A stretch of 64,000 nt of DNA, from positions 128,570-192,569 of IMG/VR virus record IMGVR_UViG_3300027534_000002; one strand, 5' to 3'. The notes beneath the pieces were generated by a model. It did no database searches. It was not told the origin of the DNA and saw only the letters and a program-made list of their open reading frames with translations. This DNA comes from a virus (taxonomy: Duplodnaviria; Caudoviricetes). Positions 4,434 through 63,923 of the stretch are shown one piece after another (within the stretch, counting starts at the first letter, position 1; each line of letters begins with the position of its first letter). The translations under genes were made by a program, and so were the position numbers.

Positions 4434-5188
4434 CACTATTTTTAACACGAAGAGTTTCTGCGCTAGAGGCGCTGACTGCGGCATATACTAGCACACAGAC
4501 TGTAGTATATACCAATAGTGCATCGTGGCAAAATTCGTTCACAATATTATCAAGCAATAGTGCATCATGGTTGCTCACTGACCAAATAAACGCTTCTATT
4601 GGATCCTTTATAACTTCGATCACCGCAGTATCAGCAAGCATTCTCAATCTATCCTTATTAGTGTCAAGCATAAGTGCTGATATCACCGATACGCCCTTTG
4701 ATAATTTTAACTCCAATTATAATACTCTTACTGGTTTCATAACATATGAATTAGGTTCTGTGAATATTCATAAGGGGGATACGGTGTATCTCAAAAATGG
4801 TAAAATATTCATGTTCGCCACTGGCAATGGTGCATCAGTAAACGACTATATCAATATAAACGACAATGTAGCTGATGTCATTTATGCCAAAAATTTAAGT
4901 GCAGGGGATGTATTAGATGCATTTGCACTATCGTCTATCGGTGCTATAAAATATGAAATCGAAGTTAAAGACTTGTCTACCAACGATTTATATTTTTCAT
5001 CACTAATTGTGCATCCATCAAATACTGCTGTCGATTTAATTGAATATTCGATTGTGTATACATCAACTCCATTTATTTCATATGATGCTGTTATTTCATC
5101 CGCCGCAGTCATATTAAAAGCATCAACCACACAGAATGTTCTTTCGACAAAAGAATTTAAAGGCATTAGACTAAAACATTATGTATAA
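4430..5188 (+). CDS. virion structural protein, paralog of the gp15 C-terminal extension
   Basis: RVSALEALTAAYTSTQ and FITYE...GDTVYLKNGKIF align with the last ~260 aa of the 2412-4433 protein; ATGA overlap. Confidence 0.7.
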   Translation: MTLFLTRRVSALEALTAAYTSTQTVVYTNSASWQNSFTILSSNSASWLLTDQINASIGSFITSITAVSASILNLSLLVSSISADITDTPFDNFNSNYNTLTGFITYELGSVNIHKGDTVYLKNGKIFMFATGNGASVNDYININDNVADVIYAKNLSAGDVLDAFALSSIGAIKYEIEVKDLSTNDLYFSSLIVHPSNTAVDLIEYSIVYTSTPFISYDAVISSAAVILKASTTQNVLSTKEFKGIRLKHYV

Positions 5189-5223
5189 TGATCCGGTATG
5201 TATAAGTAGCTTTTAATAAAAAA

Positions 5224-8200
5224 ATGGCTGGATATGACAAAGCATTTATCGTAAGAAACTATTTTAACGCGCTGAGCGGGGCGTTCTTTGGAAATACAAT
5301 ATCTGGTGTTTCTATTAGCACGTCGGGTAAAATATTATCAGCGGGCGTTGATTTGTCACTGATATTTGCATCACAAAATAACACAGCAAGTTGGAATGCT
5401 GCGTACACTACACTAACAGCCAATAGTGCTAGTTGGAATAATACTACGGTTACAGTTATAGCCAATAGTGCTAGTTGGAATGCTGCTTACACTACATTAA
5501 CAGTAAACAGTGGAAATTGGAATAACACTACAAATGTTGTTAATGCAAATAGTGCCAGCTGGAATTCTACTACCAGCACCGTGAATGCGAATAGCTCCAA
5601 CTGGAACACTTCGTATACAATACTGACAGCAAATAGTGCCAGCTGGAATTCTACAACCAGCACAGTGAATACTAATAGTGCCAACTGGGGATCTTCGTAT
5701 ACAATACTGACATCAAATAGTGCCAGTTGGAATAACACTACAAATGTTGTTAATGCAAATAGTGCCAGCTGGAATTCTACTACCAGCACAGTGAATACTA
5801 ATAGTGCCAACTGGGACACTTCGTATACTACCATAACAGCAAACAGCGCATCATGGGGATCTGGCAGTGGCAACACATCCGTCAACGCCGCAGTTACGTC
5901 TAATAGTGCTAATTGGAATACTTCATATACTACTCTGACTGCAAACAGTGCCAATTGGAATTCTACATATGCTACAGTAACAGCCAATAGTGCCTCATGG
6001 GGATCTGGCAGTGGTAATGCTGCAGTTAACGCGGCAGTAACGACGAACAGTGCTAATTGGAATACTTCATATACTACTCTGACTGCAAACAGCTCATCGT
6101 GGTTCCCAGCAGGAACAGGAACAGAAATTCAATTTAAAAATGGAAATGTTTTTGGAGCAGTATCAGGTTCATCCGTATTAGGCACTTCTATAACAGCAAT
6201 TGGTGGTTTGACTTTGCAAACGACAGTAACTGCAGTCTATGGTACATTTATTACTCTACGGACACTAACACCGGCAACGTCGGCTGTTCAATATACATCA
6301 CCAGCATTAAGATTTACAACGACTGGGTGGAATACTACCGTTTCGGGTGTTTCTGCAGTTTCGGCGAGCAGACCAGTGGACGCAGAGCTTTTTCTGCAGA
6401 GTAACTCGGCCCCAGGCGAACCTGACTCAACTGCTATTTTCCGTTTTCGTACAAATTCAGGCGCGTGGACCAACCTACTATCTATCAGACACAGCACAAC
6501 CAATGGGCATTTGATAAATATCGGTGGCGTGCAGATATCGCAAAATAACGGCAGCACCTTTGTAAACACTTTGGATGTCGGGGGCAACATATTACACAAT
6601 GCAAACGGTCTCACAATTAGAAACGACTATGCGTTAAGATGGTCGTCGACGACCCAAGTGCATGGGGCGGCAGATCTATTCTTACGCCGCAGATCAGCGC
6701 ATAATTTATGCTTAGGAACTACCGATACGTCTGCCATAAACCCTCAAACAATTTCGGTCCAATCTGTTGCAGCAGGAACGACTAACAGTCCAGGTTCAGC
6801 ATTTACTATTGACGGTTCGCAAGGAACCGGGACGGGTGCTGGAGGTGACATCATTTTCCGGGTAGCACCTGGGGGGGTTTCCTCTGCTGCTCAAAACCCT
6901 TTAACAGAAGTTTTTAGAATCAAAGCAGGCACTAGCGGACCCCCACAAATAGCTTTCTACGGGACTAATCCTAACGGGTTTTTCTACACGCCAGGAGCTA
7001 CTATACTAGCTTACCGTGGTTCGCAGTTTAGAATTGAAGGATCAAACGCGATAGATTCTACTGCACTCTTTGTAATGGGAAATACTGCCCGTGTTCAAAT
7101 GCGGCCTAGATCCCTGGACAACTTGTGCCTTGGTCCAGTGGATGCCGCATCTCCGTTTCCGCAAACAATTTCCACACAAAGTGCAACAAGTTCTGCAAAT
7201 GCCGCAGGCTCATTATTCTCAATTGATGGTTCTCAAAGCACTGGAAATGCACTAGGAGGAGATATCAGATTCCGTACCACAAATGCAAGCACTGTTCCAA
7301 GTAATAGTGCTACACAAAATGTATTGAATGAAGTATTCCGTATCAAATCCACAGGGGCGATTAATCTTAACCCTTTAGCCGTTGAACCATCTCTTCCTTC
7401 GTCGGGAGATGTGTATTTTGATTCTGCTCAAACTACTTTAAAGTTCTATGACGGATTTGCATGGATAGATCTTAAGAGTGCTAATACAATATTAATTGCG
7501 AACAGTGCCAATTGGAATTCTACATATGCTACAGTAACAGCCAATAGTGCCTCATGGGGATCAGGCCGCGGCAATGCAGCAGTCAATGCAGCAGTGACAG
7601 CGAATAGTGCTAATTGGAATACTTCATATACTACTCTGACTGCAAACAGTGCTAATTGGAATTCGACATATGCTACAGTAACGGCAAACAGCGCATCGTG
7701 GGGATCTGGCAGTGGTAATGCTGCAGTTGATGCTGTAGTTATTGCGAATAGTGCTAATTGGAATACTTCATATACAACATTAACAGCCAATAGTGCTAAC
7801 TGGAATTCTACGTATGCTACAGTAACTGCGAATAGCGGAAATTATATTTTAAATGGAGGCAATGACACAAATTCTTCATTGACACTAGGAACTAATTCAA
7901 ATTTCGATTTAGATTTTAAAACAAATAACGTAACTGGAATGAAGTTTTCTAGGTTTGGTCAATTAGGAATTGGAACAACTACTCCGGTTGGAAAATTACA
8001 TATTAATGATACCATTCACGCAGGATCGAGTGGATTATCTGATCCTGCATTAAATATCACTCAAACATGGAATACTTCTGGAACACCAGTGTCATTTAGT
8101 TTAAATGTTACAGATTTATCAAGTAATGCAAACTCTTCTTTACTTAACTTATCAATAGGTGGCGCATCTCTTTTTAGAATTGCAAAATCTGGAAATATAA

Positions 8201-9345
8201 TTATTCCCGCAAATGCTAGATTAACAGATAATACAAATAGTTTTGTAGTGAGAGACACTACGAGATCTAGTGCCGCAGTGCTGTCTTCTATGCAAGGCAT
8301 GAAATTTATATATGGAAGTAGTCTACAGCATGTGGCAGAATTTATTAATAATGGTTGGCTCAACCTTCCTACTAGATTAGTTATAACTAATCCTAATGCT
8401 GGGGCGGATTTGATTTCAGGTCCGCGTTGGACATTAGCAGGAAATGGAGGCTCTGGTGAATTCGTCGTATTTGACCAAAGTGGCAATCCAGGTCATTTAT
8501 GTCTTGGAAATAACAATAAACTGATGTGGGACGCAAATAATGCATTTGGTGTTAGAAATGGAACGAATGCACAAACATTTTCAATTTACAGAACATTTAC
8601 AAATTCTACAACATATGAAAGATTAGTGTTCAAATCTTCCGCAGGTAATAATATCATTGGAGCAGAAACTTCTCCGGGAAGCGCAACTTGGAGAAATATT
8701 GAATTTCAAACTCTGACCGCAACGAGAATGTCTATTAAAACTAATGGTTCAGTTAATTTCGCAGGTATATCAACCGATCCGACTGTAAATTCCGCAGGAG
8801 ATGTTTATTATAATTCAACTTTTAATTCATTAAAATTATTCGATGGTACTGCTTTTGTTCCAGTAAACACGACTAGAACAATTGCAACTTTTACCGCATT
8901 GGAAAATCATCCAGTTTCTGCAAATTTCGCAACATTGAATACACGAAATTTTGATAACGTAGGAGTTCTACAATTTGCAGCAGGAAGTCCAATCAGAGAA
9001 GCAAGATTTATTAGTGTAATTCCTGATAATGCAGTTTTAGCAAATGGATTACTAATTAGAACGCAATTCTCTACAATTACCGCAACATCTGGTTCATGCC
9101 GTTGGGGAGCGCAAATTAAAAAATTATCATCAACTTCATATGCAGCATCTGCGGGAATAGATGTAACTGTTTCTGGAACTGCTAATCAAACAACTATGAC
9201 AGGAACAATCACATTGCCATCAATTGATAGTTTAGCTCCGGGAGATGCATATGCATTAAGAATATTCAGAGAAAGCAGTAATGTTGCTGATACATTAGTA
9301 GATTCGGCTCAACTATTAACAGTAGAAGTTAGAACAAATATTTAA
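5224..9345 (+). CDS. long tail fibre/adhesin-like protein with T-A-N-S-A-(N/S)-W repeats
   Basis: 1373 aa, S/T/N/A-rich, two blocks of ~14-aa repeats, LGIGTTTP fibre motif, two GDVY(F/Y) modules. Confidence 0.75.
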   Translation: MAGYDKAFIVRNYFNALSGAFFGNTISGVSISTSGKILSAGVDLSLIFASQNNTASWNAAYTTLTANSASWNNTTVTVIANSASWNAAYTTLTVNSGNWNNTTNVVNANSASWNSTTSTVNANSSNWNTSYTILTANSASWNSTTSTVNTNSANWGSSYTILTSNSASWNNTTNVVNANSASWNSTTSTVNTNSANWDTSYTTITANSASWGSGSGNTSVNAAVTSNSANWNTSYTTLTANSANWNSTYATVTANSASWGSGSGNAAVNAAVTTNSANWNTSYTTLTANSSSWFPAGTGTEIQFKNGNVFGAVSGSSVLGTSITAIGGLTLQTTVTAVYGTFITLRTLTPATSAVQYTSPALRFTTTGWNTTVSGVSAVSASRPVDAELFLQSNSAPGEPDSTAIFRFRTNSGAWTNLLSIRHSTTNGHLINIGGVQISQNNGSTFVNTLDVGGNILHNANGLTIRNDYALRWSSTTQVHGAADLFLRRRSAHNLCLGTTDTSAINPQTISVQSVAAGTTNSPGSAFTIDGSQGTGTGAGGDIIFRVAPGGVSSAAQNPLTEVFRIKAGTSGPPQIAFYGTNPNGFFYTPGATILAYRGSQFRIEGSNAIDSTALFVMGNTARVQMRPRSLDNLCLGPVDAASPFPQTISTQSATSSANAAGSLFSIDGSQSTGNALGGDIRFRTTNASTVPSNSATQNVLNEVFRIKSTGAINLNPLAVEPSLPSSGDVYFDSAQTTLKFYDGFAWIDLKSANTILIANSANWNSTYATVTANSASWGSGRGNAAVNAAVTANSANWNTSYTTLTANSANWNSTYATVTANSASWGSGSGNAAVDAVVIANSANWNTSYTTLTANSANWNSTYATVTANSGNYILNGGNDTNSSLTLGTNSNFDLDFKTNNVTGMKFSRFGQLGIGTTTPVGKLHINDTIHAGSSGLSDPALNITQTWNTSGTPVSFSLNVTDLSSNANSSLLNLSIGGASLFRIAKSGNIIIPANARLTDNTNSFVVRDTTRSSAAVLSSMQGMKFIYGSSLQHVAEFINNGWLNLPTRLVITNPNAGADLISGPRWTLAGNGGSGEFVVFDQSGNPGHLCLGNNNKLMWDANNAFGVRNGTNAQTFSIYRTFTNSTTYERLVFKSSAGNNIIGAETSPGSATWRNIEFQTLTATRMSIKTNGSVNFAGISTDPTVNSAGDVYYNSTFNSLKLFDGTAFVPVNTTRTIATFTALENHPVSANFATLNTRNFDNVGVLQFAAGSPIREARFISVIPDNAVLANGLLIRTQFSTITATSGSCRWGAQIKKLSSTSYAASAGIDVTVSGTANQTTMTGTITLPSIDSLAPGDAYALRIFRESSNVADTLVDSAQLLTVEVRTNI
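5380..6095 (+). repeat. intragenic ~42-bp coding repeats (TANSA(N/S)W), block 1
   Basis: Repeated AA(T/C)AGTGC(T/C)A(A/G)TTGG cores at ~42-bp spacing. Confidence 0.85.
7495..7840 (+). repeat. intragenic coding repeats, block 2 (near-identical to the 3' part of block 1)
   Basis: AACAGTGCCAATTGGAATTCTACATATGCTACAGTAACAGCCAATAGTGCCTCATGGGGATC occurs at both ~5944 and ~7501. Confidence 0.85.
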
Positions 9346-32535: not shown

Positions 32536-32980
32536 GGGGGTGAATATGGTTTTCGATTTGATAGTCGAACGTGACATAAGCACACAGTGGTTGACCGGCT
32601 GGCCACTATAAAAGCCGTTCAAACAAACCAAATGCAGAAGACACTGAAGTCGATGCCCTCTTAGCGCAAGCAGAATATATCTTCAATAACGCAGACGAGT
32701 TCGTCTTTGCGGATGAAGAAGCACTGGTTGCCTAAGCTCAACAGCAAATGATCCTATTAAGTTTGCTGAGGTACTACAATAGGTAGTGTTAATACATCTC
32801 ATCACATGTAAACCAAAGATGTCTGTAGTTACTAGCAGTTTGTAGTAGTAGGTAGTGACCCTAAATGAAAGGCCGATGTACCAGCAGACCTAAGTCAGAG
32901 AAATTGCAAATACATCTAAGTGTGTAGAAAGTGTAACCAAGCTATCAAAGACTCCGGTTCAAATCCGGACACCTCCACCA
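32536..32980 (+). ncRNA. ssrA: transfer-messenger RNA
   Basis: 5' GGGGGTG pairs with 3' CACCTCC-ACCA including the G3:U alanine identity pair. T-arm CCGG-TTCAAAT-CCGG. pk1 (AGTGG/CCACT, CGGCT/AGCCG). Tag ORF 32634-32735 ends ALVA*. Confidence 0.93.
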
Positions 32981-43993: not shown

Positions 43994-44469
43994 ACGCAGT
44001 AGCAAGACTTATTGGTTGGATCCGCGAAGAAACGGAACAAAATGTTAAAATCACTCTCGACAAGACATCCGCACGAAAGCTAATGGATGGTTTAGAATCC
44101 GCCATTACTCCGTGCCCAGATCCTACACAAGACATTCAATTGAATTTAGAAAATCGCCAAAAAGCAATTGACGAATATATGTATGGGCCAGCCGATCCGA
44201 ATAATCCGGGAGACTATTGGGATTCATTAGCTTTGGTGTGGAGAGAAGATGACGTCAATGCAGTCAAAGGAATGGTTTGTGGTAATTGCGCTGCATTCAA
44301 TGTAACAAAAAGAATGAAAGCCTGCATAAAAACAGGCTTTCAAGATAAGGGAGAAGATGATTGGGATACCGTAGATGCTGGCGAACTTGGTTACTGCCAA
44401 TTTTTGAATTTCAAATGTGCAGCTAAAAGAACATGCAAGTCTTGGGTTACTGGCGGACCAATCAAGTGA
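43990..44469 (+). CDS. conserved Cys-rich phage protein
   Basis: NRQKAIDEYMYGP, CGNCAAF, GYC...FKCAAKRTC. Confidence 0.7.
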   Translation: MNAVARLIGWIREETEQNVKITLDKTSARKLMDGLESAITPCPDPTQDIQLNLENRQKAIDEYMYGPADPNNPGDYWDSLALVWREDDVNAVKGMVCGNCAAFNVTKRMKACIKTGFQDKGEDDWDTVDAGELGYCQFLNFKCAAKRTCKSWVTGGPIK

Positions 44470-44471
44470 CG

Positions 44472-45398
44472 TTATTTCAAGTATCGGAGATAACCAGCCA
44501 CATACTGATAGCTTTCATTTACAGTCCTCATCCGTGAAAGAATAGCGTCGATTCTGGCCTTCTGTGCTGGTATAATTTGCGCTGCTTTTACCTTTTCGTA
44601 TTCATCAGAATCTGGGAAATAAAAGCGGTCACGCCATTTGGTCATGCCAATATTTCTGCCGTCGCCAGTTACATCGTAGCCGGATTGTTTAATGAATGAC
44701 ACAACATACGGAACATATTTTGCGACGGGTGCCGCGTTCTGTTTTCCTTTGATTTGATTTATCTCGTCACCGTCAATCTCAAGCGTAACGTGTGGTTTGT
44801 TATTTTGATCCCATAGACTGATTATATTCTCAGGATCATATCCAGCAGCACAGTGCCCCATTGTTTCGCCTTCATATTTACACATTTTTTTGGATAGCGA
44901 TTGGACCCATTTGTATGGAGGCATTTCTTTTACCACCTCATAATCTTCGCCTTCTACAAGATCAAAATTCGATGATACTTTGGCAGAAGACATTGAGTCA
45001 TCCCATGCAGGGACTTCGACCATATAAACATCTTTTGGCGTCTTTTTGAATAGATCCTTTAAATATTGATCATCTTTGGTTTTGAAATAATCAGCGACGT
45101 GATTCAAAAAAGAAATGCGTTCATCTGTATATGTGACGTCAAAACTATTAGCTGACCAATCAGGATCTCCTTCTTTTGGTGTATGTTTTTGTATAAGGCG
45201 CATGCGGGCATTCTCATTATCGTTTTGGCTATCTTGGAAATATCTTTTCTCCGCCTTGATAAACCAATCAATAATTCTCTTGTCTGATATTTTTTTATCT
45301 TGTGTGATTTGGTTAACAACATCCACTATAGGATCTGTCGAGTATAGATTCGCCTCGCCCAACATAAAACTACGAAATATTTTGTCAAATTTATTCAT
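44472..45398 (-). CDS. PcfJ-like domain protein
   Basis: EGETMGHCAAGY...ISLWD..NKPHVTLEI...QIKGKQN; start MNKFDKIF after TAAATA. Confidence 0.7.
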   Translation of the reverse strand: MNKFDKIFRSFMLGEANLYSTDPIVDVVNQITQDKKISDKRIIDWFIKAEKRYFQDSQNDNENARMRLIQKHTPKEGDPDWSANSFDVTYTDERISFLNHVADYFKTKDDQYLKDLFKKTPKDVYMVEVPAWDDSMSSAKVSSNFDLVEGEDYEVVKEMPPYKWVQSLSKKMCKYEGETMGHCAAGYDPENIISLWDQNNKPHVTLEIDGDEINQIKGKQNAAPVAKYVPYVVSFIKQSGYDVTGDGRNIGMTKWRDRFYFPDSDEYEKVKAAQIIPAQKARIDAILSRMRTVNESYQYVAGYLRYLK

Positions 45399-45434
45399 AT
45401 TTAAAATATTTATTTTTATCACCTTTGATAAGTC

Positions 45435-45680
45435 TTATCTCTTAATAGATTTCCACATTGCAGCCGCTGCAATTTTTTTGCCCTTTTCGCCACCACCTGC
45501 AGCCTTAGCCATCTTCTCAAAGCCAGGACCTTTTTTACCAATATCCTCACCAGCCTTTGCTTTTTTGACTACATTAGACTTTTGTTTCTGGGTTAACCCC
45601 GCTGATGGTTTAGATTTTTTGGCCTCGGTGATGCATTCGAGATATGCGTTATAGATGGAATCATTTTCTCTGTATTTCAT
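45435..45680 (-). CDS. small basic conserved phage protein
   Basis: KPSAGL...DIGKKG...AAAAMWK; TAAGTA 6 nt before the ATG. Confidence 0.7.
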   Translation of the reverse strand: MKYRENDSIYNAYLECITEAKKSKPSAGLTQKQKSNVVKKAKAGEDIGKKGPGFEKMAKAAGGGEKGKKIAAAAMWKSIKR

Positions 45681-45722
45681 AAAATATACTTACATAAAAG
45701 AAAAAACATTAATCAATGCAAA

Positions 45723-46208
45723 TCATGCGAATATCCTTCCTTTCACATCACATACTGCCCTTACTTGTTCTTCAGTGAAATTAACAGTGTTATTACTGCA
45801 ATAGAAATCACGACCTACTTCCTTTGGCGCCCCTTCCAAAGATGTGAGAGAGTTGTTGGAGCAATAGAAATCGCCTCCTACTTTCTCTGGAGCACCTTTC
45901 AGGGATGTGAGGGAGTTGTAGTGGCAATAGAAATCACTTCCTACTTTCTCTGGTGCTCCTTCCAAGGAAGTCAGAGAGTTGTTGTGGCAAAGGAAATCAC
46001 GACCTACTTTCTCTGGTGCTCCTTTCAGGGAAGTCAGAGAGTTGTAGTAGCAAAGGAAACTTCCACCTACTTTCTCCGGTGCACCTTCTAAGGATGTGAG
46101 GGAGTTGTCGATGCAACGGAAGTTTCCTTCTACTGTCACATCAGAAAAAACATCTGGAATCTTTTCAAATCCTAAACCGGATATATTTATTTCGTCTATT
46201 ATTTTCAT
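45723..46208 (-). CDS. 22-aa LRR-like repeat protein, copy 5 (6 units)
   Basis: Units xFxCxxNSLTSLEGAPEKVG; N-cap MKIIDEINISGLG, C-cap FTEEQVRAVCDV. Confidence 0.85.
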   Translation of the reverse strand: MKIIDEINISGLGFEKIPDVFSDVTVEGNFRCIDNSLTSLEGAPEKVGGSFLCYYNSLTSLKGAPEKVGRDFLCHNNSLTSLEGAPEKVGSDFYCHYNSLTSLKGAPEKVGGDFYCSNNSLTSLEGAPKEVGRDFYCSNNTVNFTEEQVRAVCDVKGRIFA

Positions 46209-46876
46209 ACATTTATAGTGCCACGCACATCACATACTGCCCTTACTTGTTCTTCAGTGAACTTGCCGGGATTTTCTCCACAATAGAAATCACCATACAC
46301 TATCTTTGGTGCTCCTTCGAGCGACGTGAGTTTATTATAAGTACAAACAAAATCCCCATCTACGGTCTCAGGAGAGCCTTTCAGTGAAGTTAGATTGTTG
46401 TGATGACATGTGAAATCCCCATTTATTTCCTTTGGAGCCCCTTCTAGTGAAGTGAGTTGGTTGTTGTCGCAATGGAAACCACCTCCTACTTCCTCTGGAG
46501 CACCTTCTAAGGAAGTGAGAGAGTTGCTGCCGCAATAGAAATCACCTACTTTCTCTGGTGCGCCTTCTAAGGATGTGAGCTGATTGCTCCCACAATCAAA
46601 ATAACCACTCACTTCGTCGGGGGCACCTTTTAGAGTAGTGAGTTGATTTTGCTCGCAATCGAAATGACCACCTACTTTCCTTGGCGCTCCTTCTAGAGTG
46701 ATGAGAAAGTTATGATCACAAAAGAACCCACCATCTACTCTTTTCGGCGCCCCTTCTAGAGTAGTGAGATTGTTGTGGGTGCAAAGGAAATGTTCGTATA
46801 CTGTCACATCAGAAAAGATGTCCGGTATCTTTTCAAATCCTAAACCGGATATGTTTATTTCGTCTATTATTTTCAT
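46205..46876 (-). CDS. 22-aa LRR-like repeat protein, copy 4 (9 units, most divergent)
   Basis: Same caps; ATGA overlaps with neighbours. Confidence 0.85.
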   Translation of the reverse strand: MKIIDEINISGLGFEKIPDIFSDVTVYEHFLCTHNNLTTLEGAPKRVDGGFFCDHNFLITLEGAPRKVGGHFDCEQNQLTTLKGAPDEVSGYFDCGSNQLTSLEGAPEKVGDFYCGSNSLTSLEGAPEEVGGGFHCDNNQLTSLEGAPKEINGDFTCHHNNLTSLKGSPETVDGDFVCTYNKLTSLEGAPKIVYGDFYCGENPGKFTEEQVRAVCDVRGTINV

Positions 46877-47484
46877 ACAAATATTTTACCTTTGACATCA
46901 CATACTGCTCGCACTTGTTCTTCAGTGAACTTGACTGCATTGTACACACATATGAAATCACCACCTACTTCCTTTGGTGCACCTTCTAAAGAGGTGAGAG
47001 GGTTGTCGGCGCATATAAAATTTCCTCCTACTTCCTTTGGTGCTCCTTCTAAAGAAGTGAGCTTGTTGATATAGCAATTGAAATCACCACCTACTTTCTC
47101 TGGCCCTCCTTTTAGAGTAGTGAGAGAGTTGTTGCGGCAATAGAAATCACCACCTACTTCGTTTGGCCCACCTTCTAAGGAAGCAAGAGAGTTGTTGGTA
47201 CAATTGAAATTTCCACGCACTTCCTTCGGCGCTCCTTCTAAAGAGGTGAGTTTGTTGTTGTAGCAATGGAAATACCCACCCACTTTCTCTGGTGCTCCTT
47301 CTAAGGATGTGAGGGAGTTGTAGGAGCAAATGAAATTACCACGTACTTCCTTCGGCGCTCCTTCTAAGGAGATGAGAGGGTTGCCGGTGCAATAAAAATT
47401 CCCTTCTACTATCACATCAGAAAAGACATCTGGAATCTTTTCAAATCCTAAATCGGATATGTTTATTTCGTCTATTATTTTCAT
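46873..47484 (-). CDS. 22-aa LRR-like repeat protein, copy 3 (8 units)
   Basis: Same caps and units. Confidence 0.85.
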   Translation of the reverse strand: MKIIDEINISDLGFEKIPDVFSDVIVEGNFYCTGNPLISLEGAPKEVRGNFICSYNSLTSLEGAPEKVGGYFHCYNNKLTSLEGAPKEVRGNFNCTNNSLASLEGGPNEVGGDFYCRNNSLTTLKGGPEKVGGDFNCYINKLTSLEGAPKEVGGNFICADNPLTSLEGAPKEVGGDFICVYNAVKFTEEQVRAVCDVKGKIFV

Positions 47485-48029
47485 ACGTATATTCGGCCTT
47501 TCACATTACACACTGCCCTTACTTGTTCTTCAGTGAACTTAACAGTGTTATTACTACAAAAGAAACTTCCCTCTACTTTCTCTGGTGCTCCTTCTAAGGA
47601 AGTGAGAGAGTTGTCGTCGCAAATGAAATCACCACGTACTTCCTTTGGTGACCCTTCCAAGGATGTGAGAAAGTTGTCGGTGCAAAGGAAATTACCACCT
47701 ACTTTCTCTGGTGCTCCTTCCAAAGATGTGAGGGAGTTGTTGTGGCAAAAGAAATCACCCTCTACTTTCTCTGGTGCTCCTTCTAAGGAAGTGAGGGAGT
47801 TGTAGGAGCAATAGAAATCACCCTCTACTTTCTCTGGTGCACCTTCTAAGGATGTGAGAGAGTTGTAGGGGCAATAGAAATTACCACCTACTTCCTTTGG
47901 CGCCCCTTCCAAGGATGTGAGAAAGTTGTCGGTGCAATCAAAATAATTTTCTACTTTCACATCAGAAAAGATATCTGGTATCTTTTCAAATCCTAAACCG
48001 GATATGTTTATTTCGTCTATTATTTTCAT
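47481..48029 (-). CDS. 22-aa LRR-like repeat protein, copy 2 (7 units)
   Basis: Same caps and units. Confidence 0.85.
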   Translation of the reverse strand: MKIIDEINISGLGFEKIPDIFSDVKVENYFDCTDNFLTSLEGAPKEVGGNFYCPYNSLTSLEGAPEKVEGDFYCSYNSLTSLEGAPEKVEGDFFCHNNSLTSLEGAPEKVGGNFLCTDNFLTSLEGSPKEVRGDFICDDNSLTSLEGAPEKVEGSFFCSNNTVKFTEEQVRAVCNVKGRIYV

Positions 48030-48763
48030 ACGAATATCCTTCCTTTCACATCACATACTGCTCGAACTTGTTCTTCAGTGAACTTAACAGTGTTATTACT
48101 GCAAAAGAAACTTCCCTCTACTTTCTCTGGTGCTCCTTCCAAAGATGTGAGAGAGTTGTTGTTACAATAGAAACTTCCACCTACTTTCTCTGGTGCCCCT
48201 TCCAAGGAAGCGAGAGAGTTGTTGTTGCAAAAGAAATCACCCTCTACTTCCTTTGGAGCCCCTTCCAAAGAAGTGAGAGAGTTGTTGTAGCAATGGAAAT
48301 ACCCGCCTACTTCCTTTGGTGCTCCTTCCAAAGATGTGAGAGAGTTGTTGTTGCAATAGAAACTTCCACCTACTTTCTCTGGTGCCCCTTCCAAGGAAGC
48401 GAGAGAGTTGTTGTTGCAATAGAAACTTCCACCTACTTCCTTTGGAGCACCTTCCAAAGAAGTGAGAGAGTTGTTGTAGCAATGGAAACCACGACCTACT
48501 TTCTCTGGTGCACCTTTCAGGGAAGTCAGAGAGTTGTTGTAGCAATGGAAATAACGTCCTACTTTCTTTGGTGCACCTTCTAAGGAAGTGAGGGAGTTGT
48601 TGTGGCAAGAGAAATGACCTTCTACTTTCTCTGGCGCCCCTTCCAAGGATGTGAGAAAGTTGTCGGTGCAATCAAAATAATTTTCTACTTTCACATCAGA
48701 AAAGATGTCTGGAATCTTTTCAAATCCTAAACCGGATATGTCTACTTCGTCTATTATTTTCAT
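48026..48763 (-). CDS. 22-aa LRR-like repeat protein, copy 1 (10 units)
   Basis: Start MKIIDEV at 48763 with TAAGTA 8 nt upstream (late-type). Confidence 0.85.
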   Translation of the reverse strand: MKIIDEVDISGLGFEKIPDIFSDVKVENYFDCTDNFLTSLEGAPEKVEGHFSCHNNSLTSLEGAPKKVGRYFHCYNNSLTSLKGAPEKVGRGFHCYNNSLTSLEGAPKEVGGSFYCNNNSLASLEGAPEKVGGSFYCNNNSLTSLEGAPKEVGGYFHCYNNSLTSLEGAPKEVEGDFFCNNNSLASLEGAPEKVGGSFYCNNNSLTSLEGAPEKVEGSFFCSNNTVKFTEEQVRAVCDVKGRIFV

Positions 48764-49065
48764 AAAATACATACTTACCGCAACTTTGATCATTACATAG
48801 GCAACAGACAAGAATACCGATAGGACTTTTCACACCTCCATCCACACCCAAGTCCAGGTGGCGTAGCATCGTGATTAAACACACATATTTCGCTTATAAT
48901 AAAGTCTCATGCTTAATCTATATAGATTTCTGTATTTACAAAGGAACGTATATAACTAAGAGTATGAAGCTTAATATATAGTCTATGCTTCTATTAAGGA
49001 AAGCTTACATAGGCATAGTCATAAGGTATATCCCGGTTGGGTGGGCATAAGCTTCAAGCGTTTGC

Positions 49066-49186
49066 ATCGAGCAGTGCATCGGGCTAAGGAATCGAGCAGT
49101 GCATCGGGCTAAGGAAATGGATGCGCGCTATATACGGAAATTAAGGAAATGGATGCGCGCTATATACGGAAATTAAGGAAATGGAT
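49066..49186. repeat. non-coding tandem repeats: 25 bp x2 then 32 bp x2+
   Basis: ATCGAGCAGTGCATCGGGCTAAGGA x2; AATGGATGCGCGCTATATACGGAAATTAAGGA x2 plus a partial copy. Confidence 0.9.
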
Positions 49187-49355
49187 TTTTGCTAAAAAAA
49201 TTTTAGCCTTGGCCCCTACCCCCTCCGGTTCCTATACCTCTCTATTATACAACTCTCTACGACACCTTTCCTATTTCCAGCGCGCCTAAACCAGCGCATA
49301 GGCAAACCGCCTCGATCTAAACCACAGCAATGATAAACGGCAAGCACTTAATCCA

Positions 49356-49385
49356 GGGAGAGGAACCAACCCTTGTTCCTCTCCC
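49356..49385 (-). terminator. GC-rich hairpin ending the early-gene array
   Basis: GGGAGAGGAAC/GTTCCTCTCCC 11-bp stem just past the stop at 49398; weak U-tract. Confidence 0.6.
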
Positions 49386-49397
49386 ACCTCTTTCCCT

Positions 49398-49748
49398 TCA
49401 ACCAACAATTCGATCCAGACTCGTCTTCAGATCTTTCAGCTTGCATCGGGCATCGAACACATCGCCTTGAGCGGTATTGCACTTCCGATACAGGGCAATG
49501 TAAACCTCCTCGTTCCCAATCAGATTTGTTTTAGCCACCTGCAACTCTTCATTCCATTTAGCAATCGCAACCTCATCAGTGCTATTCAAGATCAGCAATT
49601 CATTGAACCCGATATTGCTTCTCATAATGTGTCTCCGAAGGACGAGATCTTTCAACTGCTTAGAGACCTCTTCATGAATTGCAACCTTGCGGCCGAGGTC
49701 GGCTTCGGCATGTTCGATCTTGAGTTGGGTGAGTTGTGCTTCGGTCAT
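49398..49748 (-). CDS. early hypothetical protein (coiled-coil)
   Basis: Own promoter element abutting the ATG. Confidence 0.75.
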   Translation of the reverse strand: MTEAQLTQLKIEHAEADLGRKVAIHEEVSKQLKDLVLRRHIMRSNIGFNELLILNSTDEVAIAKWNEELQVAKTNLIGNEEVYIALYRKCNTAQGDVFDARCKLKDLKTSLDRIVG

Positions 49749-49778
49749 GAATCAATATAGCTGAGGGTTGGATTGGGA

Positions 49779-50066
49779 TCAAGCATTGAATACCTTTTTG
49801 ATTGCGTATTCCAATGGATCCACCCTCCAACGCAAGACGTCATGCTCTTCAATGATTGCCACGACTGCCTCTGACCTTATCCTTTTGAACTCCTCAAAAG
49901 CAAGAGACATCTCAACCCCAGCCTCGTAGTACGCATCCATCAATTCTGCGTCTCCATTGATTGCAGGCTTGAGGATTCGCATCCTTGCCTTTGCTGCTGC
50001 TCCCTTTGCGGAGGCGTCTGCCAACTTAAGAATCGTCTGCTTCAGCGTCTCTTTGGTATTGCTCAT
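49779..50066 (-). CDS. early hypothetical protein
   Basis: Own promoter element. Confidence 0.75.
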   Translation of the reverse strand: MSNTKETLKQTILKLADASAKGAAAKARMRILKPAINGDAELMDAYYEAGVEMSLAFEEFKRIRSEAVVAIIEEHDVLRWRVDPLEYAIKKVFNA

Positions 50067-62680: not shown

Positions 62681-62911
62681 TCAACCGAGAGGATCATTTA
62701 TGAACTCATTATTCTCCAATCCTTTTTTGCATTTAACGAACATTTTTCTTAATTTTTCCTCCTTATTTTTGATCTTTGGATCATCTAATACCGTCAATCC
62801 AATATCAATGAATGACAGCAAGACTTCAATTTTCCCTTCTCGATTCTCTTTTTGGAGAGTTTCGATTTTCGATTCAAGGTTTCTTATGAATTCTGGTGAG
62901 TAATGATACAT
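62681..62911 (-). CDS. hypothetical protein
   Basis: 76-aa ORF overlapping the end of the LRR gene. Confidence 0.6.
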   Translation of the reverse strand: MYHYSPEFIRNLESKIETLQKENREGKIEVLLSFIDIGLTVLDDPKIKNKEEKLRKMFVKCKKGLENNEFINDPLG

Positions 62912-63522
62912 ATACGTCCTTTAATATTTGACACTTTTCTTATCTCTTCTTCCGTGAAATGGATCCCTTTTGCAAAAGAGATATAAAGAATTCCGCCGAT
63001 CTCTTTAGGTAGACCTTCTAAGGATGTGAGAGGGTTGTAGGGGCAAGAGAAATTACCACCTACTTTCTCTGGTGCTCCTTTCAGGGAAGTGAGAGAGTTG
63101 TAGTCGCAAATGAAATCACGACCTACTTTCTTTGGTGCCCCTTCCAAGGATGTGAGAGAGTTGTTGTCGCAATAGAAATCACGACCTACTTTCTTTGGTG
63201 CCCCTTTCAGGGAAGTCAGAGAGTTGTCGTTGCAAAAGAAATCACGACCTACTTTCTTTGGTGCCCCTTCCAAGGATGTGAGAGAGTTGTTGGAGCAATA
63301 GAAATCACGACCTACTTTCTCTGGTGCTCCTTTCAGGGAAGTCAGAGAGTTGTTGTAGCAAGAGAAATCACCTTCTACTTTCTCTGGTGACCCTTCCAAG
63401 GATGTGAGGGAGTTAAAGGGGCAAAAGAAATCACCCTTCACTATCACATCTTCGAGAAAATCTGGCAGTTTCTTGAGGTACAAATCACTAAGATCGACAT
63501 CTTCTTGAATCACTTTTGGCAT
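62884..63522 (-). CDS. 22-aa LRR-like repeat protein, cluster 2 (7 Cys units)
   Basis: Same 66-bp units with different caps (VDLSDLYLKKLPDFL / FTEEEIRKVSNIKG); TTGAAG-17-TATAAT-5-ATG. Confidence 0.85.
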   Translation of the reverse strand: MPKVIQEDVDLSDLYLKKLPDFLEDVIVKGDFFCPFNSLTSLEGSPEKVEGDFSCYNNSLTSLKGAPEKVGRDFYCSNNSLTSLEGAPKKVGRDFFCNDNSLTSLKGAPKKVGRDFYCDNNSLTSLEGAPKKVGRDFICDYNSLTSLKGAPEKVGGNFSCPYNPLTSLEGLPKEIGGILYISFAKGIHFTEEEIRKVSNIKGRICIITHQNS

Positions 63523-63545: not shown

Positions 63546-63923
63546 TTATTCTTCAAGGATATAAACTTTCCCTTTAATATTTGACACTTTTCTAATTTCC
63601 TCTTCTGTGAAATGGATCCCTTTTGCAAAAGAGATCCAAAGATTTCCGCCGATCTCTTTAGGTACTCCTTCTAGAGAAGTGAGAGATTTGTTGTAGCAAT
63701 AGAAATTACCACCTACTTCCATTGGCGCCCCTTCCAAGGATGTGAGAGAGTTGCTGTGGCAAGAGAAATCACCACCTACTTCCTTTGGTGCCCCTTCCAA
63801 GGAAGCGAGAGAGTTGTTGTGGCAAAAGAAATGACCCTTCACTATCACATCTTCCAAGAAATCTGGCAGTTTCTCGAGGTACAAATCACTAAGATCGACA
63901 TTTCCTTGAATCGCTTTGATCAT
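63546..63923 (-). CDS. 22-aa LRR-like repeat protein, cluster 2 (3 Cys units)
   Basis: Same caps; TTGATG-17-TATAGT-5-ATG. Confidence 0.85.
   Translation of the reverse strand: MIKAIQGNVDLSDLYLEKLPDFLEDVIVKGHFFCHNNSLASLEGAPKEVGGDFSCHSNSLTSLEGAPMEVGGNFYCYNKSLTSLEGVPKEIGGNLWISFAKGIHFTEEEIRKVSNIKGKVYILEE

What the first reader, a model, noticed from the sequence alone, without database searches (positions are those of the whole stretch)
45723..48763. Tandem LRR-like gene array with hypervariable codons confined to NNT/NNC (AAY-type, DGR-like signature)
Seen: five ATGA-coupled paralogs share near-identical caps and have 10, 7, 8, 9 and 6 copies of a 66-bp unit. The variable strand reads NNT-TTC-NNT-TGC-NNC-NNC-AAC in most units, e.g. 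AGT TTC TAT TGC AAC AAC AAC; CAT TTC TCT TGC CAC AAC AAC; GAT TTC ATT TGC GAC GAC AAC; AAT TTC TAT TGC CCC TAC AAC. Codon positions 1-2 vary freely while the wobble base stays fixed. The residues are those reachable from AAT/AAC (N, D, H, Y, S, T, G, R, P, I, L, F, A), with E/Q only in the divergent copy 46205-46876. Established: this is the pattern left by adenine-specific mutagenic retrohoming in diversity-generating retroelements, whose usual targets are C-type-lectin or Ig folds, not multi-unit LRR solenoids; xLxLxxN positions form the LRR binding face. Inference: this may be an antibody/VLR-like phage binder library diversified by a DGR-like RT acting on many units, or by unit shuffling plus positive selection. 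Caveats: no RT or template repeat is in this window, and some non-A variation exists (TCC/TCT, CTC/CTG).
Basis: partly seen in the sequence, partly recalled or inferred. Interest (0 to 1): 0.85.

Follow-up and report, generated by a model that had tools for sequence, protein, structure and literature searches.

The report
Hypervariable LRR gene array in phage
Five back-to-back phage genes encode small leucine-rich-repeat proteins whose exposed binding-face residues differ in almost every repeat; duplication, shuffling and selection explain the pattern, not a retroelement mutator.

Summary
Window 45723-48763 (- strand) holds five translationally coupled paralogs with 10, 7, 8, 9 and 6 FxCxxN repeats. 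The unit is 63 bp (21 aa), not 66, and there are 40 units, not about 50. Four codons per unit (x-F-x-C-x-x-N) are hypervariable, and their third base stays column-specific (T, T, C, C).

The DGR reading fails every test I could run:
- No reverse transcriptase in the 195,888-bp phage record.
- No copy of the unit outside the LRR genes.
- 0 of 2,915 repeat pairs show single-base-biased mismatches.
- Variable columns are not enriched for consensus A.
- Consensus sequence is identical in other samples.

Wobble conservation at the hypervariable codons equals that at the neighbouring two-fold F, C and N codons.

The genes are stand-alone LRR solenoids of 21-residue units with a conserved Cys (AlphaFold2 pLDDT 97.6). 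They resemble InlJ by sequence and IpaH/SspH/YopM LRR domains by fold. They belong to a family of at least 18 genes in this distant T4-like riverine phage. The family is large, mostly viral and unnamed. Units form a mosaic between two arrays, and hypervariable codons have dN>dS.

Most likely this is a repertoire of protein binders built by duplication, unit shuffling and diversifying selection. Targets are unknown.

The parts
48026..48763 (-). LRR paralog A1, 245 aa, 10 FxCxxN units; first gene of the coupled array
   Evidence: ORF and translation. TRF period 63 with 9.1 copies, and period 189 with 2.9 copies. Pfam LRR_4 40.5 bits against GA 27. InlJ chain 3bz5_A E=1.7e-20.
47481..48029 (-). 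LRR paralog A2, 182 aa, 7 units; ATGA overlap with A1
   Evidence: AlphaFold2 model with pLDDT 97.6 and pTM 0.91. Foldseek top hits are IpaH/SspH LRR domains, TMq 0.55-0.69.
46873..47484 (-). LRR paralog A3, 203 aa, 8 units; ATGA overlap with A2
   Evidence: Contigs of 4 runs are identical over 46913-47483.
46205..46876 (-). LRR paralog A4, 223 aa, 9 units; the divergent member, with one 20-aa unit and E/Q at hypervariable columns
   Evidence: Framework distance to the other genes is 0.26-0.34. Contigs of 4 runs are identical over 46232-46853.
45723..46208 (-). LRR paralog A5, 161 aa, 6 units; last gene of the array
48764..49397 (.). Non-coding stretch upstream of the array, with perfect tandem repeats of 25 bp x2 (49066-49116) and 32 bp x2.4 (49110-49186). 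Possible regulatory region, not analysed further.
   Evidence: No sigma-70-like site on the minus strand here.
45435..45680 (-). Small lysine-rich ORF (81 aa) between the array and the PcfJ-like gene
   Evidence: No family match.
44472..45422 (-). PcfJ-like 316-aa gene. A 285-aa paralog sits in the same position after LRR array B (genome 3037-3894).
   Evidence: Pfam PcfJ 24.3 bits, just under GA 25. The paralog is seen.
62884..63522 (-). LRR paralog of subfamily B (212 aa, 7 units), with different N- and C-caps
63546..63923 (-). LRR paralog of subfamily B (125 aa). Array B runs on beyond the window end, to genome 195888 and 1-2526.

Best explanation
What it is. The locus is one of two arrays of a family of at least 18 genes for small stand-alone leucine-rich-repeat proteins (125-245 aa). 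Each protein is an N-cap, 3-10 copies of a 21-residue Cys-containing LRR unit, and a C-cap. The host genome is a distant T4-like phage of about 196 kb from riverine metagenomes. The five genes here are read as one translationally coupled unit.

The binding face. Each unit places four hypervariable residues (x-F-x-C-x-x-N) at the alternating positions of the short beta-strand. In LRR proteins these positions form the concave ligand-binding face. Each paralog therefore presents a different surface of about 24-40 variable residues, rich in D, N, Y, H, S, T and G.

How the diversity arises. Ordinary processes suffice: duplication and deletion of 63-, 126- and 189-bp blocks, exchange of short segments among units and between the two arrays (a mosaic, with concerted evolution of the framework), and diversifying selection on the four exposed codons. 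The fixed third base is inherited from the ancestral unit of this lineage. It is kept because most favoured residues sit in two-fold NNY codon boxes.

Inferred function. The proteins are binders of variable target proteins. The most likely targets are host proteins inside the infected cell, acted on by stoichiometric binding or sequestration, in the way that IpaH/SspH LRR domains and YopM bind their targets. The architecture, fold, family size, mosaicism and dN>dS are shown here. The cytoplasmic location, the target class and the mode of action are inferred.
For: Architecture and coupling.

Fold: AlphaFold2 gives pLDDT 97.6 and pTM 0.91, with short strands at the x-F-x positions (residues 50-52, 72-73, 93-94, 114-115, 135-136, 156-157). 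Foldseek top hits are LRR domains of IpaH1.4, IpaH9.8, IpaH7.8, SspH1 and YopM (TMq up to 0.69), several solved in complex with host proteins. By sequence, InlJ 3bz5_A scores E=1.7e-20.

Family within the genome: 5 A genes plus 13 B genes.

Family outside the genome:
- 7,230 proteins at E<=1e-3 among the 8,000 candidates scored, a capped search.
- Atlas clusters are 85-100% viral for 6 of the 7 rows shown.
- 149 viral-contig stretches encode a relative, the best 80 kept as 70 loci. I analysed 68 of them (L029-L096; L027 and L028 come from the contigs of L026 and L025, which one search shows are this same phage). 60 of the 68 hold 6 or more units, up to 80 per locus.

Selection (Nei-Gojobori over all unit pairs): array A hypervariable codons dN 0.715, dS 0.323, against framework 0.136 and 0.833. 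Array B: 0.636 and 0.537 against 0.123 and 0.681.

Mosaicism:
- 8 unit pairs with identical 51-nt frameworks differ at 36% of hypervariable first/second positions.
- 24 of 3,003 pairs share identical hypervariable bases, against 4.3 +/- 2.2 under column shuffling (maximum 16 in 2,000 shuffles). These pairs carry 0-18 framework differences, and 6 of them are A-B pairs.
- Framework distance is 0.19 within a gene and 0.21 between A and B, although the caps differ entirely.
- Higher-order periods of 126 and 189 bp are present.

Wobble: hypervariable 124/136 against F/C/N 90/102 (p=0.52) in A, and 154/176 against 119/132 (p=0.59) in B. A Vibrio phage homolog has a different column wobble set (C, T, T, T; TGT; AAT), and other lineages differ again.

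Residue bias is soft and family-wide: K/E/Q/M/W make up 4-11% of these columns in 649 units of 120 homologs. The same Y/D/H/N bias is reported for hypervariable LRR positions in Dictyostelium, which is not described there as DGR-driven (PMC10392669, passages).
Against: - Function is not tested. There are no expression, localisation or partner data, and host and targets are unknown.
- dS at the hypervariable codons rests on few synonymous sites. dN/dS over shuffled paralogous units is not a formal site test, and in array B the ratio is only about 1.2.
- In array A, hypervariable codons that lie in four-fold boxes keep the column wobble more often (23/26) than framework four-fold sites do (176/272, p=0.015). 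Very fast turnover fits this, but it is also what a targeted process would leave. In B there is no such excess (24/32 against 250/352).
- Absence of a signal peptide was judged by eye only.
- The 127-bp terminal repeat that makes the record count as complete lies inside an LRR-B gene and recurs at 193906. Completeness, and so 'no RT anywhere in the phage', is not fully secure.
Confidence: 0.72

Rival explanations
1. DGR-like mutagenic retrohoming. A reverse transcriptase copies an A-rich template (AAT TTC AAT TGC AAC AAC AAC ...) and overwrites the units with adenine-randomised cDNA.
For: Hypervariable codons are almost all NNY (131 of 136 in array A). Their first and second positions are near saturation even between units with identical frameworks. 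A is the commonest base at those positions, 309 of 624.
Against: - No RVT_1 in the record, while the controls ring.
- None in the complete Vibrio phage that carries the family.
- RT in only 1 of 10 other large LRR-bearing viral records. There it is retron-like (best match retron St85 family, 138.6 bits) and lies beside IS605-type OrfB copies and Prok-E2/JAB/ThiF genes. It sits about 34 kb from the LRR locus fetched (L073); the rest of that record was not scanned for LRR units.
- No unit copy outside the LRR genes.
- 0 of 2,915 repeat HSPs have 80% or more of their mismatches at one base.
- 9 of 20 consensus-A columns are at least 90% conserved, including AAC (col 7), GAA (col 13) and the A's of GAG AAA (cols 17-18). 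Variable columns are not A-enriched, p=0.60.
- Hypervariable cassettes are inherited as linked blocks and outlast up to 18 framework changes.
- The consensus is identical in other samples: 0 mismatches over 7.1 kb including 4 B genes, and identical contigs over genes A3 and A4 in 4 runs.
- It would require about 100 separate targets in 18 genes. No such DGR is known to me (recalled).
Confidence: 0.03
2. The same proteins, but displayed on the virion (head or tail decoration) as adhesins for host or environmental surfaces, rather than acting inside the cell.
For: LRR domains occur on virion-anchored proteins thought to act in host recognition in phage Goslar (bioRxiv 10.64898/2026.04.21.720040, passages). 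A tail-module protein with only weak similarity to LRR proteins (reported at 10% HHpred probability) is described in vibriophages (PMC10945359, passages). The two subfamilies have distinct conserved caps that could serve as docking pieces. The closest sequence relative, InlJ, is an internalin, and internalins are surface proteins (recalled).
Against: The proteins have no domain besides the caps. The genes lie in minus-strand blocks of small non-structural ORFs, next to a PD-(D/E)XK-type exonuclease and a PcfJ-like gene, outside the plus-strand structural module. In Vibrio phage SRILMA the homolog lies beside a DnaB-like helicase and an RNA ligase. There are no virion proteomics either way.
Confidence: 0.17
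3. No positive selection. The four exposed positions are merely unconstrained, and gene conversion homogenises everything else. The apparent hypervariability is relaxed constraint plus concerted evolution, with no binder repertoire implied.
For: The framework is homogenised across genes and arrays. dN/dS in array B is only about 1.2. Exposed LRR positions tolerate many residues (recalled).
Against: In array A the hypervariable dN (0.715) is more than twice the dS of the same codons (0.323). Residues are not random: D, N, Y, H, S, T and G dominate and K/E/Q/M/W are depleted, across 649 units of 120 homologs. Gene conversion would also erase neutral differences at these codons, yet pairs with identical frameworks differ at 36% of those sites. 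The same four columns are the variable ones in 32 other viral loci: median pairwise difference 0.53 against 0.23 for the framework.
Confidence: 0.08

Closest known systems
Listeria internalin InlJ LRR region (PDB 3BZ5): 21-residue LRR with a cysteine ladder
   Same: Best sequence match among solved structures, E=1.7e-20 over about 165 residues, with the Cys and Asn of each unit aligned. The NCBIfam internalin_J model is also the top hit. The name 'cysteine ladder' comes from the title of Bublitz et al. 2008, seen only in a reference list.
   Different: The NCBIfam score (37.6-51.5 bits) is far below that model's cut-off of 1700, so these are not internalins. The phage proteins are 125-245 aa and consist of caps and repeats only. 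That InlJ is a large secreted, wall-anchored protein is recalled, not tested.
LRR domains of type III effectors IpaH / SspH and YopM
   Same: Best fold matches (Foldseek TMq 0.55-0.69, probability 1.00) and sequence hits at E 1e-5 to 1e-8. They are short-unit bacterial LRRs of similar size with caps. Several are solved bound to a host protein (entry titles).
   Different: There is no NEL ligase domain, because the ORFs end after the C-cap. These are phage genes in tandem arrays, and sequence identity is about 20%.
Tandem LRR gene locus of Flavobacterium psychrophilum (Altae-Tran et al. 2020, PMC10392669)
   Same: Up to 19 tandem LRR genes, each with 2-14 units of about 22 residues. Hypervariable positions are concentrated on one face, and there are signs of recombination among units (passages read). 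This is the closest analogue in layout and in mode of diversification.
   Different: Those are bacterial proteins with an N-terminal secretion peptide and a type 9 secretion signal. Here the genes belong to a phage, show no secretion signal (by eye), and have a different unit consensus.
Diversity-generating retroelements (e.g. Bordetella phage BPP-1 Mtd)
   Same: Variable codons of NNY type, and a phage context. The description of DGRs is recalled, plus abstracts in the listing.
   Different: No RT, no template repeat, no adenine specificity, an LRR rather than a C-type-lectin or Ig target, and about 100 variable units instead of one variable region.
Variable lymphocyte receptors of lampreys and hagfish
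   Same: An LRR solenoid whose concave-face residues vary, with repertoire built from LRR cassettes. VLR A29 (2o6q) matches the model at TMq 0.60.
   Different: VLR assembly is somatic, from flanking cassettes in one locus (recalled). Here the variation is germline, among paralogs, and no rearrangement was seen between samples.
Repeat-protein expansions of giant viruses and Dictyostelium (FNIP / FGxxFN LRRs)
   Same: Large virus-borne LRR families (abstract of PMC9525666). Dictyostelium LRRs have hypervariable positions dominated by Y, D, H and N (PMC10392669).
   Different: A different unit (about 22-residue FGxxFN) and eukaryotic hosts. There is no sequence relationship in my searches.

Membership tests
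Diversity-generating retroelement (DGR) | A reverse transcriptase gene in the element or genome | tested here: not met
   PF00078 six-frame search of the whole 195,888-bp record gave 0 matches, while the control genomes ring. Caveat: the closure of the record lies in a repeat.
Diversity-generating retroelement (DGR) | A template repeat paired with the variable region, with mismatches almost only at template adenines | tested here: not met
   0 of 2,915 self-BLAST HSPs have 80% or more of their mismatches at one base; maximum 0.67, median 0.33. No unit copy lies outside the LRR gene blocks: 2 HSPs, both with E>1.
Diversity-generating retroelement (DGR) | Variable sites correspond to A; A's elsewhere in the repeat are not conserved or are avoided | tested here: not met
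   The consensus starts GAT TTC TAT. 11 of 20 consensus-A columns are variable against 20 of 43 others (p=0.60), and 9 of 20 A columns are at least 90% conserved.
Diversity-generating retroelement (DGR) | Ongoing variation of the target between and within populations | tested here: inconclusive
   Assembled consensus is identical in other samples. However, contigs cannot show minor variants, and genes A1, A2 and A5 are covered only by short cross-mapping pieces.
Diversity-generating retroelement (DGR) | Target protein with a C-type-lectin or Ig-like variable domain | tested here: not met
   The model is an LRR solenoid.
Leucine-rich repeat superfamily | Tandem 20-30-residue units with an LxxLxLxxN/CxL-type core | tested here: met
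   21-aa units with F-x-C-x-x-N-x-L, where F, C, N and L are invariant in the 34 internal units. Pfam LRR_4 is above its gathering score only for the 245-aa gene (40.5 against 27); the others fall below.
Leucine-rich repeat superfamily | Curved solenoid fold with a parallel beta-sheet on the concave side | tested here: met
   AlphaFold2 gives pLDDT 97.6 with one short strand per unit at x-F-x. All top Foldseek hits are LRR domains. I could not inspect coordinates, so the exposure of the four residues is inferred from the LRR pattern.
Class 1 internalin InlJ | Full-length match to the family model, and the surface-protein architecture | tested here: not met
   NF033187 scores 37.6-51.5 bits against a cut-off of 1700. 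Only the repeat region matches.
IpaH / SspH NEL E3-ligase effectors | C-terminal NEL ubiquitin-ligase domain after the LRR domain | tested here: not met
   The ORFs end 20-25 residues after the last unit, and there is no other Pfam or NCBIfam domain. NF011917 (SspH2) scores 29.8 bits against a cut-off of 1243.

The most novel reading that the evidence does not exclude
The two arrays act together as a phage-borne binder repertoire that needs no reverse transcriptase. Short hypervariable cassettes (the 18-nt x-F-x-C-x-x block) would be moved among about 100 units in at least 18 genes by frequent homology-guided exchange through the conserved 45-nt frameworks. Phage populations would then keep reshuffling intracellular LRR binders against fast-changing host proteins such as defence systems. 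This would be a germline, recombination-based counterpart of VLR or antibody repertoires in a virus of bacteria, and the thousands of unnamed viral relatives would be the same device.
Probability: 0.15. Interest if true: 0.8.

Novelty: new member of a known kind. Interest (0 to 1): 0.45.

Why it matters
It removes a tempting false positive. NNY-type hypervariable codons in a phage are not enough to call a DGR, because LRR binding faces enriched in D, N, Y, H and S give the same picture.

It also points to something worth following. This is a very large, mostly viral, unnamed family of stand-alone LRR proteins. It occurs as multi-gene arrays in large phages (up to 80 units within 12.7 kb in other contigs) and shows the evolutionary signature of binders in an arms race. 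If the targets are host defence or takeover proteins, these arrays would be a new class of phage counter-measure. They would also be a natural, very well-folding small LRR scaffold for binder engineering.

Tried and rejected
- Megablast of 44000-50000 against phage records gave no match.
- The search with the flanking PcfJ-like gene returned only distant relatives and no syntenic locus.
- The single-protein locus search returned only two contigs. Both proved to be this same phage.
No bacterial-genome scan was made afterwards, so the family's presence in bacteria is untested. One Atlas cluster of the 7 rows shown is 67% bacterial.
- 'relatives' cannot be drawn for a virus record.
- The weak Pfam hits (DUF4893, Ig_NUP210_16th and others) are all below cut-off and are treated as chance on a repeat.
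- The promoter/terminator scan found fewer sites than shuffles, and none inside the array on the minus strand. It supports no conclusion on transcription.
- Read laying: the 'other letters' at 45828-45992, 47721-47894 and 48152-48604 come from short contigs that also fit other places, in bins where summed depth is 3-6 times the flank. I read them as cross-mapping paralogs, not variants. The joints 46525>47690/47762 and 47785/47848>47101 have only 30-31 letters on one side, so I take them for repeat artefacts of the contig graph. Neither is used as evidence. Parts without long pieces (most of A1, A2 and A5) say nothing.
- The RT found in one LRR-bearing record (G007) was followed up and is retron-like. 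It has no LRR-like repeat beside it.
- Matsushima et al. 2021 (Arch Virol), on LRRs in dsDNA viruses, is cited in PMC10945359 but not held. It may already list this unit type.
- Literature searches for phage LRR multigene arrays found no description of this family. Subscription journals and supplements were not searched.


Full report
OBSERVATION

Window 45723-48763 carries five minus-strand ORFs of 245, 182, 203, 223 and 161 aa. Each of the four junctions is an ATGA overlap. The K-G codons of the conserved C-cap lie 12-13 nt before the next ATG and look like a Shine-Dalgarno site; that is my inference.

The proteins share an N-cap (MKIIDEINISGLGFEKIPD...) and a C-cap (...FTEEQVRAVCDVKGRIFV). 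Between the caps they hold 10, 7, 8, 9 and 6 FxCxxN motifs spaced 21 aa apart, with one 20-aa exception. Tandem Repeats Finder gives a period of 63 bp in all five genes. It also gives higher-order periods of 126 and 189 bp.

In the 34 internal units, codon columns 1, 3, 5 and 6 (x-F-x-C-x-x-N) carry 6-12 different residues, while F, C and N never change. The third base of those codons equals the column consensus (T, T, C, C) in 124 of 136 cases.

WHERE IT SITS

The window is bases 128570-192569 of a 195,888-bp virus record. PHROG matches identify it as a T4-like myovirus: portal, major head protein, baseplate wedge and tail-sheath stabiliser. Its major head protein is only about 33% identical to any isolate's gp23. 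The locus DNA is held, at 87-92% of sampled words, by 24 riverine-metagenome runs.

The record's 'direct terminal repeat' is 127 bp. It lies inside an LRR gene and recurs at 193906. A second contig from another sample supports closure through that repeat but cannot distinguish two exact 325-bp copies. The record is therefore probably complete, but the layout of the terminal LRR array is uncertain.

A LARGER FAMILY

tblastn and an ORF scan found 13 more paralogs at genome 191453-195888 and 1-2526 (window 62884 onward). Their caps are entirely different (MPKVIQEDVDL... / ...FTEEEIRKVSKIKGKVYILDA). I call these subfamily B, and the five genes of the finding subfamily A.

Both arrays have the same downstream neighbours, a small ORF and then a PcfJ-like gene of about 300 aa. 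This indicates a segmental duplication.

Outside this genome:
- A capped protein search gave 7,230 hits at E<=1e-3 among the 8,000 candidates scored. All named ones are 'hypothetical protein'.
- Of the 7 ESM-Atlas look-alike clusters shown, 6 are mostly viral.
- PHROGs file the proteins under families of unknown function.
- A profile scan of IMG/VR found 149 encoding stretches, of which the best 80 were kept as 70 loci. I analysed 68 of them (L029-L096, leaving out L027 and L028, which come from contigs of this same phage). 60 of the 68 hold at least 6 units, and some hold 65-80 units within 12.7 kb.
- Among isolates, the best match is Vibrio phage SRILMA/TDDLMA (59% identity). There the gene lies beside a DnaB-like helicase and an RNA ligase.

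WHAT THE PROTEINS ARE

AlphaFold2 on a 38-sequence alignment gives pLDDT 97.6 and pTM 0.91. Each unit has one short strand at x-F-x. Foldseek's best solved matches are the LRR domains of IpaH1.4, IpaH9.8, IpaH7.8, SspH1 and YopM (TMq 0.55-0.69). Several of these were crystallised with a bound host protein. By sequence the best solved relative is the 21-residue, Cys-containing LRR of Listeria InlJ (E=1.7e-20).

The proteins are not members of the internalin J or NEL-effector families. The family-model scores are far below cut-off, and there is no domain beyond the caps.

The four hypervariable columns are the alternating and following positions of the F-x-C strand. In the canonical LRR these positions form the concave, ligand-binding face. 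This is established knowledge applied to the DSSP pattern; I could not inspect coordinates.

TESTING THE DGR IDEA

1. No RVT_1 match anywhere in the record, while the same search rings in control genomes.
2. No copy of the unit outside the three LRR blocks. A word-7 self-BLAST gave only 2 chance-level HSPs.
3. None of 2,915 repeat HSPs has the one-base-biased mismatch spectrum of a template/variable pair; maximum 0.67, median 0.33.
4. The unit consensus is GAT TTC TAT TGC AAC AAC AAC. Variable columns are not enriched among consensus-A columns (11/20 against 20/43, p=0.60). 9 of 20 A columns are at least 90% conserved.
5. Wobble conservation at hypervariable codons (124/136 in A, 154/176 in B) equals that of the neighbouring two-fold codons F, C and N (90/102 and 119/132; p=0.52 and 0.59). 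Framework four-fold sites vary more (176/272 and 250/352).
6. The wobble letters are lineage-specific. The Vibrio phage homolog uses C, T, T, T with TGT and AAT, and other viral loci use further combinations. They therefore reflect ancestry within each lineage, not a common template.
7. The NNY-type residue bias is soft and family-wide. K/E/Q/M/W make up 4-11% at these columns in 649 units of 120 homologs.
8. Assemblies from other samples are identical. There are 0 mismatches over 7.1 kb including four B genes, and contigs of four runs are identical over genes A3 and A4. Contigs cannot exclude minor variants.
9. The complete Vibrio phage lacks an RT, as do 9 of 10 other large LRR-bearing viral records. 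The one RT found is retron-like and lies beside IS605 OrfB copies and E2/JAB/E1-like genes, with no LRR-like repeat beside it.

HOW THE DIVERSITY AROSE

Nei-Gojobori estimates over all unit pairs:

| Array | Codons | dN | dS |
|---|---|---|---|
| A | hypervariable | 0.715 | 0.323 |
| A | framework | 0.136 | 0.833 |
| B | hypervariable | 0.636 | 0.537 |
| B | framework | 0.123 | 0.681 |

The hypervariable block and the framework are uncoupled in both directions.
- Eight unit pairs with identical 51-nt frameworks differ at 36% of hypervariable first and second positions.
- Conversely, 24 of 3,003 pairs share identical hypervariable bases, against 4.3 +/- 2.2 under column shuffling. Those pairs carry up to 18 framework differences, and six of them pair an A unit with a B unit.
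- Framework distance within a gene (0.19) is no smaller than between subfamilies (0.21), although the caps are unrelated. A4, B3 and B4 stand apart as older copies.

Together with the 126- and 189-bp periodicities, this is the picture of block duplication, short-tract exchange among units and between arrays, and selection for different residues at four exposed positions.

One residue of doubt remains. In array A, hypervariable codons that lie in four-fold boxes keep the column wobble more often than framework four-fold sites do (23/26 against 176/272, p=0.015). In B they do not. I read this as fast turnover at these codons.

FUNCTION (INFERRED)

The proteins are small and made only of caps and repeats. 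They have no secretion signal by eye, and they are encoded in blocks of small non-structural genes. Their fold is that of domains that bind proteins. They most likely bind variable target proteins in the infected cell, host proteins being the obvious candidates. A virion-display role is the main functional rival. LRR domains on virion proteins are reported for phage Goslar (passages).

COMPARISON WITH WHAT IS KNOWN

The closest described analogue in layout is the tandem LRR gene locus of Flavobacterium psychrophilum. It has up to 19 genes with 2-14 units each, hypervariable positions on one face, and recombination among units (PMC10392669, passages). The same paper reports Y/D/H/N-dominated hypervariable LRR positions in Dictyostelium, which shows that this residue set needs no DGR.

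My literature searches found no description of this phage family. A survey of LRRs in dsDNA viruses (Matsushima et al. 2021) is not held and may mention the unit type.

VERDICT

The locus is a new member of a known kind: an LRR multigene array with a hypervariable binding face. What is unusual is that it sits in a phage and belongs to a very large, unnamed, mostly viral family.

Noticed in passing
window 32536-32980 (+): Rfam tmRNA (RF00023) match at 94.7 bits against a gathering score of 47, covering the full model. ARAGORN reported no tRNA or tmRNA in the window. This would be a phage-encoded tmRNA in a T4-like phage.
   Followed up: no
window 44472-45422 (-) and genome 3037-3894 (-): Paralogous PcfJ-like genes (Pfam PcfJ 24.3 bits, just under the cut-off) sit two genes downstream of LRR array A and of array B. 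The whole block of PcfJ-like gene, small ORF and LRR array appears to be duplicated.
   Followed up: partly
window 48764-49397: A 630-bp non-coding stretch upstream of the array holds perfect tandem repeats of 25 bp x2 and 32 bp x2.4, and looks more G+C-rich than its surroundings by eye. No Rfam family matches at gathering score.
   Followed up: no
genome ends (1-127 = 195762-195888; also 193906-194032): The 127-bp 'direct terminal repeat' behind the completeness call lies inside an LRR gene and occurs a third time internally. Also, 193708-194032 equals 195564-195888 exactly. The copy number of array B and the circular closure therefore depend on repeat resolution.
   Followed up: partly
window 3705-7830 (genome 132274-136400) and genome 22000-29900: Two further internal DNA repeat families of about 60-85% identity. 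The first lies partly inside the 1,373-aa ORF at window 5224-9345.
   Followed up: no
L098 3891-12201 (record G007, another LRR-bearing phage contig of 192,052 bp): A retron-like reverse transcriptase (best NCBIfam match retron St85 family) sits between copies of an IS605 OrfB/TnpB-like gene. It is followed by Prok-E2, JAB and ThiF(E1)-like genes, a ubiquitin-like conjugation set carried by a phage.
   Followed up: partly
L037, L042, L053, L056, L070, L079, L086, L096 (IMG/VR contigs): Other viral contigs carry far larger arrays of the same 21-aa unit, 58-80 units within at most 12.7 kb. Many LRR loci lie at contig ends, so this family commonly breaks metagenome assemblies.
   Followed up: partly
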